Both the position numbers and the translations under genes were made by a program. DNA of 14,363 nucleotides from a virus, in UHGV virus genome UHGV-0778877. One strand, 5' to 3'. Shown in pieces: positions 1 to 10,800 of this stretch. Within the stretch, counting starts at the first letter, position 1, and each line of letters begins with the position of its first letter. The notes under the pieces were generated by a model. The model was not told the origin of the DNA. It did not search any database and saw nothing but the letters and a program-made list of their open reading frames with translations.

Positions 1-130
1 TTGAAGATGCGTCGTACACGAGAACATGGCGCGGAAGATGGATAATCAGCAACTCATGCGCATCAAACCGCAGCGATTCCATCACGCCATCAGCCAGTTC
101 ATCAGCAGTGTAGGAGCGTAGTATTTTATC
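1..130. repeat. Direct-repeat copy of an internal gp10-like gene segment (copy A); 127 nt exact, 129/130 overall, matching 2271-2400
   Basis: Read directly: window 1-127 is letter-for-letter identical to 2271-2397; position 128 differs (a vs c); 129-130 match; sequences diverge completely from 131 versus 2401. Confidence 0.9.
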
Positions 131-504
131 GTAGCCAGTTGATTGCTTGTGGCTGTCGAACCAAGTCCTCCCGTAGCCTCAGCAGCAGCAAGGCTCTGGT
201 AACGAGCCTGACCTGCAAGGTCTTTATACTGCTGAGAGTTGTAATACTGATTAAGTGCCTTCCCCTGTCCTTCTAAACTGGAAAGATTCTGAAGCTGGTT
301 AACATACTGCTCCGCAAGCGGAGTGAACGGAGCAAGGTTTTTCATGATCGTCTGCCACTGCTGATTTTGCAGGTCTGCGGCATACTTCTGAGCTTCTGCT
401 GCATACTTTGCGCTTTTATCAGAGCTACCACCTTTCCCGCCTTTTTCAGGGCACCAAGGTTCCTCGCCGCGCAGTTTTCTGCCCAGCTTAAATGCATATA
501 ACAT
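82..504 (-). CDS. Ejection (injection) protein, P22 gp7-like, N-terminal ~126 codons only; ORF continues out of frame into the repeat copy and stops at 82
   Basis: ATG at 504 with GGGAG 6 nt upstream; translation (MLYAF...GGKGGSSDKSAKYAAEAQKY...) is recognisable as the gp7 ejection protein family by recall and by its position after the gp14-like gene. Codons after about residue 126 derive from the 1-127 repeat read in a non-gp10 frame. Full-length P22 gp7 is about 229 aa as I recall, so this copy looks truncated. Confidence 0.6.
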   Translation of the reverse strand: MLYAFKLGRKLRGEEPWCPEKGGKGGSSDKSAKYAAEAQKYAADLQNQQWQTIMKNLAPFTPLAEQYVNQLQNLSSLEGQGKALNQYYNSQQYKDLAGQARYQSLAAAEATGGLGSTATSNQLATIKYYAPTLLMNWLMA

Positions 505-962: not shown

Positions 963-1810
963 TACTGCTCCGCGATTATCTTGATGGTTGTGGCAGTAAA
1001 CGCCGCACCATTCGACTGAATGGTTAACGTACTGCCATTTGTGGCAAGAAAGCCGTCTTTATCCACACTGAAGAACGTAGCTAACAGGATGTTGTCGGTT
1101 GTTGTCGCCGCATTACGACTGCTGACCAGCGTATCAGGAACAGAACCGGAGAATGTTAGCTGCATTGACCTGTTGGCGGTTCCGCTGGGCCACGTCCCGA
1201 CAATCGACAGCTTGAAGAACAAGGTTTTGTTCTCGTTGAACACAACCATCTTGTTGTTAACGGTGTCGAAGAATGGTGCCAACGTTCCGGATGACGGCGT
1301 GAGCGTTTTCAGCAGGCTAACAAGGTTGGTCGGCGCTGTCGGGATGGTTACAGATACTCCTGAGTAAACAACCTCTGATTTCTTGCGCGTGGTGGCATAC
1401 TCAAGAGCATCGATGCGCGTCTCATGGTCTGAAAGCGTGTTTTGAATGGCGACAACTTCATCCGTCAGATAATCAATATCGTTTTCTGCTGTCGTTAATC
1501 GCGAATCAAGGCCGACTATCGCCGCTTCTGCGTTAGTGATCCTTGTTTCGTGGTCCTGTATCTTCGCTTCAGCCGATGCCAGTCGAATTTCGTGATCGAC
1601 CAGAATCACATCCTGCTCATCGTTCCTGACTTGTGCATCATAAGCGCCCTGTCCGACCTCGTTGGCCTTGTTAGCAACGTTACCAACATCAGTACCCTGT
1701 GCGATAACGTACAGCAGATATGACTGCGAGAAGATATTGCGTGGAAGGACTGATGTGTCGAGCCGCGTAGCCTGGATGATTACCGGCTCATTGAGATTCG
1801 AATCAGCCAT
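962..1810 (-). CDS. Tail needle protein (P22 gp26 / Sf6 gp9 family), 282 aa, with a C-terminal knob-like extension
   Basis: ATG at 1810 overlaps the gp10-like stop (TAATG), with AGGA 7 nt upstream. N-terminus [25 protein letters not shown] is the conserved gp10-binding tip of tail needles. The middle is heptad-rich with three DHE(T/I)R(I/L) repeats (coiled coil). The last ~140 aa are a Ser/Thr/Asn-rich beta-type domain absent from the short P22-type needle. The 316-aa ORF-track version is an upstream in-frame extension into gp10. Confidence 0.85.
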
Positions 1811-3228
1811 TACTCGATCCTTATCTGGCAGCCTGACAGAGTGACAGGTGACTTCGTGATAACGCGCAATTTGAAGCCGACATTTTTCCTGATGCGCCCG
1901 ACTCGCTTCCACAAAACGCGCTTGTCGTAAACGAACGGTTCATTCTGCTCAATCATCTGCTCACGCCCGTAATTGATGCCGTCAGTGGTTGCAGAGAGGA
2001 ACAGGCGGTCAGCGTACTGCGCAACGCCAGTTGACGATTCAACCTCAAGGTCGAAAACTCTGGCGTTATCTGCTTTGAAGAGTGGAGTAAACAGCAGGTG
2101 TTCCTGTTGCTTGTCGTACTGGCTGCTGATATCGAACTGCAGTTTACCGGTAACAGATTCCAGCTTATCGCCGCACGTTATCTGATTGCCTTCGTAAATG
2201 AAGTCGATAGCGCGGTACACATCGTCATACAGACCTGTTTTCAGCACACACCATTGCGGACCATTGGCGCTTGAAGATGCGTCGTACACGAGAACATGGC
2301 GCGGAAGATGGATAATCAGCAACTCATGCGCATCAAACCGCAGCGATTCCATCACGCCATCAGCCAGTTCATCAGCAGTGTAGGAGCGTAGTATTTTCTC
2401 AGTGCTCGCGCTGGCGATTGGTGATACCTGACCGGAGCCTATGATGTATACAGACGGCGCACCTGTTGCCGGATTGCTGATGAACGCATACGAGTCAGCA
2501 AACGGCGTTTTGCAGTAAGTCCCGGCAATGCCTTTCTGCACCATCAGTGATGGCTGTGCGACATACAAAGCGGCACCAACGGTGGTTGCACCTGTCAGGG
2601 AAAAATATTCAATCGTCGATGAGCCAAAGCAGACGATGAAGTCTCGCCATGTACCTATGCCGATGATGCCGTCCGGCTGAGACTCGGCACGATATTGTGC
2701 ACTGTAGCGGTCAGGATGCGATTCATCTTCAAGGTCAGTGATAAACCATGAATCAGTGCCGTCTTTTGACCACGCATAACGCCCACGTAAGCGCGTAATG
2801 TCGCGAACTGAACCTAACTCATACTGAGTGAATCCACTGTCTGTAGGCCAGTTTGAGACGGTTTTAACCGTGCCATCATAGCGATACTCGACCAGTTGAC
2901 CATTAACGCCTACCGCCTGTGATGTCCGACCATGCGCCATTGATACACGACCACTTCCGGCAACGTCACCGACTTCACTTTCTCCTTTGTACAGCTTGCC
3001 ACCACACACACGATAAACAGCACTCTGCGCCATGTTGTACTCGACGCCTCGCGATACTCCGTTCACATCAGAACGTTTGGCAATGCCCGGGAATGAGCGA
3101 AGATATCCGCTGCTGTTCAGGATTTCTTTGGGTGTAGCCAGCATATTCACTGGCAGATAGTCGATATAGTCGGCATTTCGGAAGTCTTTGCCGACACCTT
3201 TCATGAGCGGAAGTTGCTGAATCGGCAT
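1810..3228 (-). CDS. Head completion / tail hub protein, P22 gp10-like, 472 aa
   Basis: 472-aa ORF ([33 protein letters not shown]...), same length and recognisable sequence as P22 gp10; start ATG overlaps the gp4-like stop by 1 nt. Confidence 0.9.
2271..2400. repeat. Direct-repeat copy B, lying inside the gp10-like CDS (about codons 277-320)
   Basis: Same comparison as copy A; this copy is in its native coding context within the 1810-3228 ORF. Confidence 0.9.
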
Positions 3229-6200: not shown

Positions 6201-8366
6201 TTATTGAGGTGTCTCGGCTACTCCGCCGGAGGGGATTTGAACTTGACGCATAAGATTCGCGAAATCCATGCGTTGTGAATGAGTCTGGTCTGCATCTTTA
6301 AGAAGCAGCTCAGCGTTAGCACGAGCATCTTTGCTGCGCTGTTGCTGGAATTGACCTACGAGCTTGAGGTACTCACGCAGTTCTGCCTGCTTGTCGAGGT
6401 CCATATTGTTGAAGATTTCTGCAATCTTCGCGGCGTTGAGTTGGTTTTGGGCTTCAACCTTGGCAGCTTCAACCTGAATCTGCGCCTGTTGGTTCTCTGC
6501 CTTGAGCAATTCAGCCTGACCTTGCAGAAGGATACCCTGCGCCTGAATTTGCTCTGCTGATGGCTGCTGCGGCTGTTGTTGTGCCTGTTGTACCATCTCC
6601 ATCTCTTCAGGTGTTTCTGGTTTCTTCAGCCCCATCATCACCAGTTGCTTGTTCGCGTACTCTCGCATCATCTCGACGCCTTTACCGTCAAGGAGCGTGA
6701 AGTATTGCAGCATCAGCATCTGGAACTCTGGAGTACCTTGCGGAACCTTGGTGAGCAATTCCTGAATCTCTGCGCGGTTCTGTTCCTTCATGCTCTGGAA
6801 GGATGGCCCAACGTCCGTATAGCACTCATAGCGACCGCGAATGTCGTTGAGTGTGACCACATTGCCGGACTGATAATCGACAACTTGCGCATAGAGTTGA
6901 ACGTCTTTCTCGCTTCCATCTTCAAGTGTCAGCGTTACATGACGAGGAACGTCATAAATATCGTTGACCATTGAGGCATAAATCTCGCCATCACGTCGCA
7001 TTGCGGTAGCCAGGTTATCCTGAAACACATATGTCTCAAGGTCTGCCCGCATGTTCAGTTGATTGACAGTATCGAAAGCGACCTGAGAGTTTGCTGCCTG
7101 CGCATCCACGCCAAGACTAGCCACCTCTTTCACTGCGTTGGTGGCAGCCTCAAGCATGTAAGCGTTGGCTTGCGGCACTTCAGGGTTTTCCATGTAGGAG
7201 ATTGGACCAATCGGCAGGTCGTTACCGTTTTCATCAGTCCTGTTCTGGAGATAGTACGGATAGTCATCATTTCCACCGTACATGTATTCGTAGCCTTCGA
7301 TTTGCTCAGGGAAGAAGGTAGGTTTCTTCTTCGGTGAACGAGCAACAATATCGGCGTTGAACGACATGATCATGTTACGAAGGCGCTGACCGTCTTTCGT
7401 CAGCCTTACCACTCCTTCGTAGCACTCCTTGTCACCAGCGAATGACCATTCGCCGTACACAGGAACTATTGGGATATGCTCTCCGGCTATCTTCTCGCGG
7501 TCTTTCAGTATCTGCGTGCAGGTGATGATCGACTTATACACACGCCGACGCTTCACCTTGCGCTCTGCTACCTTAATGAATCCACGATTAGCCAGATCGT
7601 CGATGACGTCTTTGATATCCTGCTGGTAATAGCTGACCGGCTCACCTGTCAGCGGGTCGCGGTAGATGAAGACCTTCTCTTTCTTCTCTTCTACCTCGTA
7701 ATACTCAGCGACGTAGACGACATCATTCGATACCCACGGAAACAGCCATGTGTCGTTCGGATTCTGGAAAGATGGCAGGGTGTCAGGATCAATACCGTAA
7801 TCCTCTGCGAACTCTTTCCAGCCATTGCGTGACAAAGCGTTAATCACCGTGCAGTGCTTAGCGTCGCTCTTATCCATCTGCTTGCTGTTGGCGTCCCATA
7901 TGACGTGTGAGCAGGCTTCATGGATTGGCAGGCGTCTGATTACCTGATTGTTGCTTGTTGGGTCGTTGTCTTCGTACTGTGTGACCAGACGCCATGCACC
8001 AACGCCGGACTCTATCTGCTCACGAACGCCAACGTTAACGGCAATCTTTGCCGTGTTATGCCGCATATCAGTACGATACATCCCCATCAACAAATCGGCT
8101 GCATCAGGATTAGCGCCGTCTTTGGGTCGGAAGAGAACGTCGATAGGGTTCCGGCGCATCTCTGCGACCAGTTTCCTGACCACCGGGCGAACAACATCGA
8201 ATTGTCCGCGATATTGCAGGGTAGTGTAGTTTGATAGCCAGTCATCCCATTGCGACACTCGGCTAAAATACAGGTCATTTGTCGCCTCGGTTCTGGCTTC
8301 ATCGCTCGCCATCCAGTCCGCGTCAAACTTACACAGAATGGAATTGAGTCTGTTTTCGTCGGCCAT
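6201..8366 (-). CDS. Portal protein, P22 gp1-like, 721 aa
   Basis: 721-aa [31 protein letters not shown]...; recognisable P22 portal, including the long Q-rich C-terminal helical barrel region ([35 protein letters not shown]...). ATG directly follows the terminase stop. Confidence 0.93.
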
Positions 8367-9866
8367 TTAAGTTCTCCGTGCGATGGGCCTGATTGGGGCT
8401 GGTATCTTTTTCTCTTTTGGTTTTTTGATGTCGCGCATCATTTTGGCGAAGCGGCGCATCATGTATGCATAGCGAACGGCTGAGAGAACATCGTCGTTAA
8501 GCTTGACGATCTTCCCGTTTTCATCACGGTGATAGAGGCGGAACTCCTCAAAGAATGGCTCACAGGTGTTGAATACTTTGAAGCGACCATCGAGCATCAT
8601 GTCGCGCAATTCAGTGATGCCAGGCTCCACAGCATTACCGCCATCAGGCCATGTCGCATGCTCCTGCAACATCATAAAACCAGCGTCGGCATACTGCCCT
8701 TTGAGCTGCTCACCGCCGCCCTTCTCATGCTGGTTTCCGTCATGAGGCCATGCGGTTGGCACTTTATGCGCCCATGATTTAACGGCTCCCCACGCCTGAA
8801 CGGCTGTTTTTTCTTTCGCCTTCCACACGCGTGAAACGTAGATTGTGTCTGCGTCCTTATCCCACCAAAGCTGAACCTGCGCCTGTGGGTGATCCCATCC
8901 GAAATCCATCCCGCCAATTACGTAGAAGTGATCAGGACACTCGAACGGCTGACACTTAATCGTCTCTTCCGGTATCTGGAAGATTCGACCACTACCCATC
9001 GTAGGAATACCGCGAGCACGCGCCTCTCTCTCATGCTCTGGATAGGATGCGATGATTTGCTCTTTCTGCTCGTCGGTATAGTGCTCAGCGTCATAGATGG
9101 TCATGTTGACCACTTTCTGCGACTTGCTGGGATTCTTCAGGAACTTGGTAACAACGTCAGACATCCCCATCAGCGGGGTAAACGTCAGAATTGAGAATTG
9201 CCCGTATTTGTTGGTACGGGTAAGACCTTCGCCATAAATGCTGTATGGTGGCTCTTCGTCAAACCACACGCCGTGGATTGTGTCACCCTGCCAGCGAGCA
9301 CGGCCTTGCGAGTATGGTTTGAAGTAGCAGATTGAAATGCCATCTTCAACGCCATCAGCCGTGTGATGCTTAACCAGAAGATGATCAACAAGGTTCGGAA
9401 AGAAAGGAGACTTCTTCCAGCTAATGATGTCTTCTTTCGGTATGGAACCGTAGCCAGGCTCATCATTCTCTTCGATACGACCGCACAGGATGCGTTGAGT
9501 CGTTTTGGTTACAGTCTCGTTTGTCTCGCCACCAATCCAGAAGACAACAGGCTCATAGAAACGCTTACCTTTCCACTCCCCACCATATTTACCATCAGCA
9601 GGATATCCTTTTGTGCCCGGATAACGCCCGGTAAGGTGAAATGCGACTTCAGCAGCACCAGTAAATGACTTACCAAGCTGGTTACCAGCCATAAAACAGC
9701 GCTCTGGATAGTCATGCCCGGCGTCGATGAACTCACGCTGTTTGCTGTATGGCGTAAATTCATATAGCAGGTGTGTGTTCCGGTAGTTCTCTTCTTCTTC
9801 GAGTAGCTCGAGCAATTCGATTTGCTCTTCGTCGCTCAGGTTATCAAGAATCGCGTCCAGTTCCAC
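8367..9866 (-). CDS. terL: Terminase large subunit, P22 gp2-like, 499 aa
   Basis: 499-aa ORF with ATPase and nuclease character, located between small terminase and portal. The first codon at 9866 is GTG, not ATG (read from sequence), with AAGGAG about 10 nt upstream; no in-frame ATG lies nearby. It overlaps the terS 3' end by 23 nt. Confidence 0.9.
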
Positions 9867-10338
9867 GGTTGAATAGCTCCTTGATACGAGAGCGCCGCTT
9901 ATCGCGATCTCCCTTATCAGGTGTCACGTCTTCAACTTGCGACTGCTCTTTGAGGCCCAAATCACGGGCGATGATGTTAGCGTTGAGAAGGTCAGCGGCT
10001 GCGCCAGAGAATTTCTGGTCGTAGATGACCTGCTCTGCTCGCGTAACGACTTCAGATAAATCTTCTCTCAGGCGATATGTGCGCCATGTTTCAAGCGTCA
10101 CATCAATGAACAGAGTGAGGCCTGTAATAGTCATCGCTCGCATCTTGGCGATAGGCTCTTGTATCACTTCACCCTGATACGAGAACGCCTTCATCTCCCA
10201 TAGCGGGTTAGCTTCTACCCACTCGAAGTATTCACAACAAGCAGCCCACAGCGCCTCAGGCGATTCGAATTTAGGATTTCGCCCATGACTACTGCGGGCC
10301 TCCCAAAATCGGTTGCCCTTTGGTGCTGCCATATTCAT
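9844..10338 (-). CDS. terS: Terminase small subunit, P22 gp3-like (164 aa from the ATG at 10338; 162 aa from the ATG at 10332)
   Basis: [52 protein letters not shown]..., recognisable as P22 gp3; two in-frame ATGs 6 nt apart; it contains the pac-like sequence listed below. Confidence 0.9.
10044..10065 (-). other. Candidate headful packaging initiation site (pac), P22-type, inside terS
   Basis: The minus-strand sequence GAAGATTTATCTGAAGTCGTTA encodes EDLSEVV within terS, the codon context in which the 22-bp P22 pac site lies; it matches or nearly matches the P22 pac sequence as I recall it from memory (not checked). Confidence 0.45.
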
Positions 10339-10355
10339 CTCACTTAGTTGTTATT

Positions 10356-10535
10356 TCAGGCTGATGACTCTTTCGCGCCTTCAATCAATGACTGCTTCAG
10401 CAATTCGAGTGTGCCAATCGCCTCACATAAACTGATTTCACCATCGTAATCATGAATGACGCTTTCCAGCCGCTCGTATAGCTCTTGAGTAATTGGGAAT
10501 TTCTTCTCCTTACCCAAATTGATTACGCGGCTCAC
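10356..10535 (-). CDS. Unlisted small ORF, 59 aa, GTG start, tightly coupled to the upstream 80-aa ORF (alternatively a frameshifted continuation of it)
   Basis: Hand translation of the minus strand: GGAG, then 6 nt, then GTG at 10535, one nucleotide after the upstream TGA; it reads VSRVINLGKEKKFPITQELYERLESVIHDYDGEISLCEAIGTLELLKQSLIEGAKESSA, then TGA. It is below the apparent 60-aa cut-off of the ORF track. This frame is open for about 8 codons upstream of the GTG, inside the 80-aa ORF. Confidence 0.4.
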   Translation of the reverse strand: MSRVINLGKEKKFPITQELYERLESVIHDYDGEISLCEAIGTLELLKQSLIEGAKESSA

Positions 10536-10536
10536 A

Positions 10537-10779
10537 TCATGCTCCGGTGGTGAACAGGTCTAACGCTTCCTTCGATTTACGCACCGCTTCGAATGTGCGG
10601 ATCGTGATATCCGAATTAGCGCCGCCTGACTGGAAGTGAATTTTGAATAGCTCAAGCTTCAACTCGTCAGTACCAATGAACTGAAATGCTTCTTCTGCGG
10701 CTGCGTTCTGGTTCATGACCAGCTTGTAAATCTCTAACTGGAATTTCTGTTCTTCAGTCATGGGAATAATCTCTGCCAT
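10537..10779 (-). CDS. Hypothetical protein, 80 aa
   Basis: ATG at 10779 with GGAG about 7 nt upstream; no family recognised; sits between the gp49/gp66-like gene and terS in the late operon. Confidence 0.6.
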   Translation of the reverse strand: MAEIIPMTEEQKFQLEIYKLVMNQNAAAEEAFQFIGTDELKLELFKIHFQSGGANSDITIRTFEAVRKSKEALDLFTTGA

Positions 10780-10800
10780 TGTTGGCTCCGTTTATCCGTT

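What the first reader, a model, noticed from the sequence alone, without database searches (positions are those of the whole stretch)
10044..10065. P22-type pac site candidate embedded in the small terminase gene
The 22-nt minus-strand sequence GAAGATTTATCTGAAGTCGTTA encodes EDLSEVV inside terS. P22 initiates headful packaging at a 22-bp site at exactly this position in gene 3, and the sequence here matches or nearly matches what I remember of it. This would make the element a headful packager capable of generalized transduction if it is inducible.
Basis: partly seen in the sequence, partly recalled or inferred. Interest (0 to 1): 0.45.

Follow-up and report, generated by a model that had tools for sequence, protein, structure and literature searches.

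The report
Authentic phage P22 packaging start site
The 22-base sequence is an exact copy of the well-studied DNA-packaging start signal (pac) of phage P22, inside a small terminase gene whose protein is identical to P22's, so it is a correct but ordinary identification of a known element in a P22-like E. coli phage or prophage.

Summary
GAAGATTTATCTGAAGTCGTTA lies on the minus strand at 10065..10044 and occurs once in the window. It matches the published 22-bp P22 pac site and the P22 genome (AF217253) at 22 of 22 bases. In both it occupies nt 268-289 of the small terminase gene and encodes EDLSEVV in frame.

- **TerS:** the gene (10332..9844) encodes 162 aa that are 100% identical to P22 gp3. 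All six nucleotide differences from P22 are synonymous.
- **TerL:** it is 93% identical to P22 gp2. It is 100% identical to the TerL of the isolated coliphage APC_JM3.2, which carries the same pac.
- **Context:** the window is the late operon of a P22-like (Lederbergvirus-type) E. coli phage or prophage, with gene order Q, lysis, terS, terL, portal, scaffold, coat, 4, 10, 26, 14, 7.
- **Prevalence:** the module is common. The exact 22-mer is on 111 IMG/VR contigs, and 141 E. coli records carry terS at 95% identity or more.

The inferred mechanism is TerS recognition of pac, TerL cutting within about 120 bp, and unidirectional headful packaging toward decreasing coordinates. That would allow generalized transduction, and lateral transduction if the element is a prophage.

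Whether the element is inducible cannot be judged. The lysogeny genes lie outside the window, and gene 7 is interrupted at the window edge. This is already known, and interest is low.

The parts
10044..10065 (-). 22-bp pac site, identical to phage P22 pac (GAAGATTTATCTGAAGTCGTTA)
   Evidence: The published sequence is quoted in PMC11447400.
10053..10064 (-). 12-bp pac core AAGATTTATCTG. The 17-nt match to the functional pseudo-pac consensus AA[GC][AG][TC][AT][AT][ATC][TC][TC]T[GT][ACG][ACG][ACG]TC spans 10048-10064.
   Evidence: each found a single match in the window. The consensus comes from PMC11226127.
9995..10115 (-). Inferred zone of packaging-initiation cuts, about 120 bp centred on pac. 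It differs from P22 at one base only (10033, synonymous).
   Evidence: Inference from P22 literature (PMC11226127; PMC11260489). Cutting was not tested here.
9844..10332 (-). terS (gene 3 homologue), 162 aa, 100% identical to P22 gp3; contains pac at nt 268-289
   Evidence: 0 aa differences, 6 synonymous nt differences; PDB 3P9A, E=1.3e-108, residues 1-162; Pfam GP3_package, 114 bits.
8367..9866 (-). terL (gene 2 homologue), 499 aa, GTG start overlapping terS by 23 nt as in P22. It is 93% identical to P22 gp2 and has a mosaic junction at about aa 317/318, between the ATPase and nuclease domains.
   Evidence: It is 100% identical to APC_JM3.2 TerL.
6201..8366 (-). P22-type portal protein gene (721 aa), the expected docking point of terminase; the headful-sensor role is inferred by homology
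   Evidence: Pfam P22_portal, 541 bits; annotation of the homologous E. coli prophage.
8950..10793 (-). About 1.85-kb block that is 92-99% identical in DNA to Salmonella phage P22 (ORF80/DUF2560, 59-aa ORF, terS with pac, TerL ATPase domain). It sits in a late operon that is otherwise about 70-83% identical to P22.

Best explanation
This is the bona fide pac site of a P22-like headful-packaging phage or prophage of E. coli. The sequence and its recogniser protein are the same as in Salmonella phage P22. Shown here: the 22-bp site, its position in terS, the identity of the TerS protein, and a complete P22-type terminase, portal and capsid gene set. Inferred from P22 biology: when the late operon is expressed, the TerS ring binds the 22-bp site on concatemeric (or still-integrated) DNA. 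TerL then makes the first cut within a zone of about 120 bp around pac. DNA is pumped into procapsids unidirectionally toward the 3' end of terS, which here means decreasing window coordinates (terL, portal, coat ...). A sequence-independent cut follows once the head is full, at about 105% of genome length. Successive headfuls give terminally redundant, partly permuted chromosomes. [quoted passage not shown] If the element is an SOS-induced prophage, it would also start at pac before excision (lateral transduction of host DNA beyond the tail-gene end).
For: - The site matches published P22 pac and AF217253 at 22/22 bases and at the same gene offset.
- It is unique in the window and not expected by chance.
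- TerS is 162/162 aa identical to P22 gp3, which has a solved structure, 3P9A.
- TerL has both Terminase_6N and Terminase_6C domains. It differs from P22 gp2 by 1 aa in residues 1-317 and is 93% identical overall.
- The same TerL protein and the same pac occur in the isolated phage APC_JM3.2.
- Gene order and Pfam content match the P22 late operon.
- The literature shows that P22 terS carrying pac confers high-frequency packaging on a plasmid or a chromosomal site, with little need for surrounding context (PMC11260489).
- The literature also shows that packaging runs unidirectionally toward the 3' end of terS, with headfuls of about 44 kb (PMC8575938).
- All 80 of the best IMG/VR terS relatives carry the exact site. 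Among 61 distinct gene sequences, none of the 51 variable sites falls in nt 266-299.
- Natural variants elsewhere change only 22-mer positions 6 and 15, which are degenerate in the functional pseudo-pac consensus.
Against: - No experimental data exist for this element; termini are not mapped.
- The window covers only the late region, so inducibility and replication competence are unknown.
- The gene 7 homologue is truncated to 140 aa by a junction with a duplicated gene-10 fragment at window 128-130. If that junction is real and no intact copy follows, virions would be non-infectious.
- The TerL nuclease domain is about 81% identical to P22's (35 differences in residues 318-499). Exact cut positions could therefore differ from P22.
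- The lack of synonymous variation around pac is not exceptional. Other stretches of terS have similarly long invariant runs.
Confidence: 0.9

Rival explanations
1. The pac site is intact in sequence but is a relic in a defective or rearranged prophage. It would never initiate productive packaging on its own, and would work only if terminase and virion proteins came from a co-resident P22-like phage.
For: The gene 7 homologue is cut to 140 aa (Pfam P22_gp7 positions 1-135 of 230). It is joined to a 130-bp copy of an internal gene 10 segment. No junction-spanning match exists in 5,426 complete E. coli genomes or in 50,697 phage records. The lysogeny and replication genes cannot be inspected.
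Against: All the other late genes examined, from Q to gene 14, are full-length with strong family matches. TerS and TerL are 100% identical to proteins of viable phages, which argues against long decay. The junction sits at the very edge of the window. It could be an assembly misjoin, or one end of a tandem duplication with an intact gene 7 beyond the window.
Confidence: 0.15
2. The 22-mer is identical to P22 only because of recent common descent and coding constraint on EDLSEVV. In this E. coli phage background, with its chimeric TerL, packaging would initiate from another site or without sequence specificity.
For: The site lies in a coding sequence, so part of its conservation is explained by protein constraint. 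The synonymous-site invariance around it is not statistically exceptional. The TerL nuclease half and the portal belong to a different lineage from P22.
Against: In P22, recognition specificity resides in TerS, and here TerS is 100% identical. Published work shows that P22 terS carrying pac is sufficient in foreign contexts (PMC11260489). No other match to the pac core or the pseudo-pac consensus exists in the window. The TerL ATPase domain travels with terS in the P22-identical block.
Confidence: 0.04

Closest known systems
pac site of Salmonella phage P22 (22 bp within gene 3; Wu et al. 2002 and Leavitt et al. 2013, as cited in PMC11447400)
   Same: The 22-bp sequence is identical. The position (nt 268-289 of terS) and reading frame are the same. 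The TerS protein is identical. The surrounding 142 bp differ at 2 bases only.
   Different: It resides in an E. coli-type P22-like late operon. DNA identity to P22 drops from 92-99% to about 70% downstream of TerL residue ~317. The tail needle is of the Sf6 knob type. The host background is most likely Escherichia, not Salmonella.
Escherichia phage APC_JM3.2 (MG197996) and related E. coli P22-like phages and prophages (IME10, HZ41, JEP4; E. coli JNE082640 prophage)
   Same: terS is 99.0-99.8% identical in DNA. The exact pac lies at the same place. TerL is 100% identical in protein. The window as a whole is about 96-97% identical.
   Different: The window has a gene 10 fragment / gene 7 junction at its low-coordinate end that none of these share. 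A segment of about 170 bp upstream of terS is present here and in P22 but absent from the JNE082640 prophage.
Other gp3-family (PF16677) small terminases in prophages of Citrobacter, Erwinia, Tatumella, Proteus, Xenorhabdus and others
   Same: Homologous TerS at 42-92% aa identity, with the pac-equivalent segment at the same place, just upstream of the conserved TRAE motif.
   Different: Their pac-equivalent 22 nt match at only 10-21 of 22 bases, and the encoded residues 84-96 vary. They presumably have different pac specificities. The window belongs to the exact P22 allele.

Membership tests
P22 pac site | 22-bp sequence GAAGATTTATCTGAAGTCGTTA, including the 12-bp core AAGATTTATCTG | tested here: met
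   22/22 identity to the published sequence and to AF217253. The core occurs once in the window.
P22 pac site | Located inside the small terminase gene, near its centre, on the coding strand | tested here: met
   nt 268-289 of the 489-nt gene in both the window and P22, codon 90, frame 0.
P22 pac site | Cognate recogniser: P22-type TerS (gp3) encoded by the same element | tested here: met
   162/162 aa identical to P22 gp3; PDB 3P9A, E=1.3e-108; Pfam GP3_package.
P22 pac site | Packaging series initiates here: cuts within about 120 bp and a unidirectional series of headfuls | not testable with these tools
   This needs virion DNA end mapping. The behaviour is known for P22 (PMC8575938; PMC11260489).
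P22-like (Lederbergvirus-type) headful packaging module | TerL with Terminase_6N ATPase and Terminase_6C nuclease domains, closely related to P22 gp2 | tested here: met
   Pfam scores 162.7 and 99.1 bits. 461/497 aligned residues (93%) are identical to P22 gp2.
P22-like (Lederbergvirus-type) headful packaging module | P22-type portal, scaffold and coat genes, with late gene order 3-2-1-8-5-4-10-26-14-7 | tested here: met
   Pfam P22_portal, Phage-scaffold, P22_CoatProtein, P22_Tail-4, Phage_stabilise, tail needle knob, DUF2824 and P22_gp7 appear in that order. The order is collinear with P22.
P22-like (Lederbergvirus-type) headful packaging module | Terminally redundant, circularly permuted virion DNA | not testable with these tools
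   No virion data are available.
Intact inducible prophage | Complete set of essential genes, with integrase, repressor and att sites | tested here: inconclusive
   The window ends within the late region. The gene 7 homologue is truncated at a junction with a gene 10 fragment. The lysogeny module is not in the window.

The most novel reading that the evidence does not exclude
The only mildly novel reading concerns the context rather than the site. A 1.85-kb 'DNA-recognition cassette' (ORF80, terS with pac, TerL ATPase domain), almost identical to that of Salmonella phage P22, has been grafted onto an E. coli-lineage TerL nuclease domain, portal and capsid. The junction falls right at the TerL ATPase/nuclease domain boundary. 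If this exchange is recent and recurrent, Salmonella and E. coli P22-like phages would share one pac specificity. They could then cross-package each other's genomes, or the same pseudo-pac-bearing DNA. Mosaicism of P22-like phages is itself well documented (Casjens & Thuman-Commike 2011, cited in the bioRxiv paper).
Probability: 0.3. Interest if true: 0.2.

Novelty: already known. Interest (0 to 1): 0.1.

Why it matters
It allows a confident annotation. The element is a pac-type headful packager with P22 specificity, so packaging direction, approximate cut zone and transduction potential can be predicted from P22. For a lysogen, this predicts lateral transduction of host genes beyond the tail-gene end of the prophage, and generalized transduction from chromosomal sequences that match the P22 pseudo-pac consensus. 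It adds nothing new to packaging biology. The module occurs in over a hundred sequenced E. coli genomes and in many phage isolates.

Tried and rejected
- **Species-representative scan:** the exact 22-mer gave 0 hits in the species-representative genome collection. That collection has one genome per species, so this says nothing about rarity. IMG/VR has 111 contigs with the exact site, and 141 E. coli records have terS at 95% identity or more.
- **Test for DNA-level constraint beyond coding:** among 61 distinct near-identical terS sequences, no variable site falls in nt 266-299. Invariant runs of similar length occur elsewhere in the gene (nt 76-116 and 439-489), so this is only weakly supportive.
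- **Degenerate codon search:** a scan for [11 protein letters not shown] showed that the 22-mer is not invariant in the wider family. T6C and A15G variants are common.
- **Primary literature:** Leavitt et al. 2013 (PMC3643300) is not held, and I did not try to retrieve Wu et al. 2002. The published pac sequence is therefore taken from secondary quotations and from the P22 genome itself.
- **RNA scans:** Rfam and tRNA scans of the window found nothing.
- **Extra pac sites:** I looked for additional pac or pseudo-pac sites in the window and found none.
- **Gene 7 / gene 10 junction:** I searched for it in E. coli genomes and phage records to decide whether it is real. Nothing spans it, so the question is undecided.

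Full report
**Observation.** The minus strand of the window at 10065..10044 reads GAAGATTTATCTGAAGTCGTTA. A search allowing up to 3 mismatches finds this single site. None of 200 dinucleotide-preserving shuffles gives a match. The site lies in frame, starting at codon 90, in a minus-strand ORF, and encodes E-D-L-S-E-V-V. The mechanical ORF is 9844..10338. The start that corresponds to P22 gene 3 is the ATG at 10332, giving 162 aa.

**Comparison with the authentic site.** Two papers in the library quote the P22 pac site. PMC11447400 gives the 12-bp form AAGATTTATCTG and the extended form GAAGATTTATCTGAAGTCGTTA, citing Wu et al. 2002 and Leavitt et al. 2013. PMC11226127 gives the 12-bp consensus and a functional pseudo-pac consensus derived from mapped transduction start sites. 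The P22 genome record AF217253 contains the 22-mer once in the terS/terL region that was scanned. It lies at nt 268-289 of gene 3, the same offset as in the window. Over 142 bp centred on pac, the window differs from P22 at two bases. Published experiments indicate that P22 packaging needs very little context around pac (PMC11260489).

**The recogniser and the motor.**
- The terS gene is 98.8% identical in DNA to P22 gene 3.
- Its protein is identical at all 162 residues; the six nucleotide differences are all synonymous.
- It matches the solved gp3 structure 3P9A over its full length (E=1.3e-108) and Pfam GP3_package.
- TerL (8367..9866, GTG start, 23-nt overlap with terS as in P22) has the Terminase_6N and Terminase_6C domains. 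It is 93% identical to P22 gp2.
- The TerL protein is 100% identical to that of the isolated coliphage APC_JM3.2 and to that of a prophage in E. coli JNE082640. APC_JM3.2 carries the same pac at the same place. This exact TerS/pac/TerL combination therefore exists in a phage recovered as an isolate.

**Context.** Pfam assignments and collinearity with P22 give the following minus-strand order:
- Q antiterminator, holin, endolysin, Rz;
- a gp49-family gene, DUF2560 (P22 ORF80), a 59-aa ORF;
- terS, terL, portal, scaffold, coat;
- gp4, gp10, an Sf6-type tail-needle knob protein, gp14 (DUF2824), gp7.

The closest whole-window matches are E. coli P22-like phages (IME10, APC_JM3.2, HZ41; about 96-97%) and E. 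coli prophages (up to 96.9% identity over 96% of the window). The source is therefore most likely an Escherichia phage or prophage. No record in these collections is identical to the window.

**Prevalence.**
- The exact 22-mer is on 111 IMG/VR contigs.
- 501 IMG/VR stretches encode a TerS relative, and the 80 best all have the exact site.
- 473 of 5,426 complete E. coli genomes have a terS match. At record level, 141 of the 477 matching records are at 95% identity or more.
- Species-representative genomes gave no exact hit. That collection holds one genome per species.

**Is there DNA-level constraint?** Among 61 distinct near-identical terS sequences, 51 sites vary, 47 of them at third codon positions. 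None lies in nt 266-299, which includes pac. Comparable invariant runs exist elsewhere in the gene, so this is only weak support. A degenerate codon search for [11 protein letters not shown] found natural variants:
- GAAGACTTATCTGAGGTCGTTA, 34 loci;
- A15G alone, 13 loci;
- T6C alone, 3 loci;
- a few others.

Positions 6 and 15 are the positions that the functional pseudo-pac consensus allows to vary ([TC] and [ACG]). This fits with those variants remaining recognisable. In more distant gp3 homologues (42-92% aa identity, other genera), the pac-equivalent segment and residues 84-96 diverge (10-21 of 22 bases). The adjacent TRAE motif stays conserved. That is what one expects if each TerS lineage has its own site. 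The window carries the canonical P22 allele.

**Mechanism (inferred by identity with P22).** TerS binds pac. TerL cuts within a zone of about 120 bp around it (PMC11226127; PMC11260489). Packaging proceeds unidirectionally toward the 3' end of terS (PMC8575938), which here means decreasing window coordinates. Headfuls of about 105% of genome length are cut without sequence specificity. Consequences are generalized transduction from pac-like host sequences and, for an SOS-induced prophage, lateral transduction of the host DNA downstream. A recent preprint reports coverage patterns consistent with lateral transduction by P22-like E. coli prophages. None of this was measured for this element.

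**Caveats.** Only the late region is in the window. At the low-coordinate end, bases 1-130 are a 99.2% copy of 2271-2400 (inside gene 10), in the same orientation. They are joined at about 128-130 to the gene 7 homologue. That gene consequently ends after 140 aa, covering Pfam P22_gp7 positions 1-135 of 230. No complete E. coli genome or phage record spans this junction. It may be one end of a tandem duplication, a real rearrangement or an assembly misjoin. If it is real and no intact gene 7 follows, particles would be defective even though pac-dependent packaging could still occur.

**Side observation on mosaicism.** DNA identity to P22 is 92-99% from about 10793 to about 8950 (ORF80, terS, TerL residues 1-317, with one aa change). 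It then falls to about 70%, with 35 aa changes in TerL residues 318-499. The junction coincides with the boundary between the ATPase and nuclease domains. This agrees with the known mosaic evolution of P22-like phages and with the idea that DNA-recognition parts travel together. I did not test how often this junction recurs.

**Verdict.** It identifies a textbook element and has no novelty. Interest is 0.1.

Noticed in passing
window 1-130 and 2271-2400; junction at about 128-130; ORF 82-504 (-): Bases 1-130 are a 129/130 direct copy of an internal segment of the gene 10 homologue. The copy is fused to the gene 7 homologue, which is thereby truncated to 140 aa (P22_gp7 profile positions 1-135 of 230). 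No E. coli complete genome or phage record spans the junction. It could be a tandem duplication, a rearrangement or an assembly misjoin.
   Followed up: partly
window about 8915-8950 (TerL codons ~306-318), within terL 8367-9866 (-): There is a sharp mosaic junction inside terL at the boundary between the ATPase (Terminase_6N) and nuclease (Terminase_6C) domains. Upstream DNA is 92-99% identical to P22 and downstream DNA is about 70% identical. There is 1 aa change in residues 1-317 against 35 in residues 318-499.
   Followed up: partly
window 10365-10534 (59-aa ORF 10356-10535, minus strand): A segment of about 170 bp between the DUF2560 gene and terS is present here and in P22 (92-97% identical). 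It is absent from the closest E. coli prophage (JNE082640). The 59-aa ORF has no Pfam match.
   Followed up: no
IMG/VR loci L256-L289 and others (pac-equivalent position of terS): Natural synonymous pac variants T6C and A15G (GAAGACTTATCTGAGGTCGTTA) are common in related terS genes. Both changes fall at positions that are degenerate in the published functional pseudo-pac consensus.
   Followed up: partly
window 965-1813 (-): The tail needle gene is of the Sf6 knob type (Pfam Phage_tail_NK), not the P22 gp26 type. This is another mosaic difference from P22.
   Followed up: no
genome loci L203 (Erwinia tracheiphila), L195 (Citrobacter sp.), L214 (Xenorhabdus), L212 (Proteus hauseri): Prophage gp3 homologues at 70-92% aa identity in other genera keep 19-21 of the 22 pac bases. 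Other homologues of similar overall identity keep only 12-16. This suggests discrete pac-specificity groups within the family.
   Followed up: no
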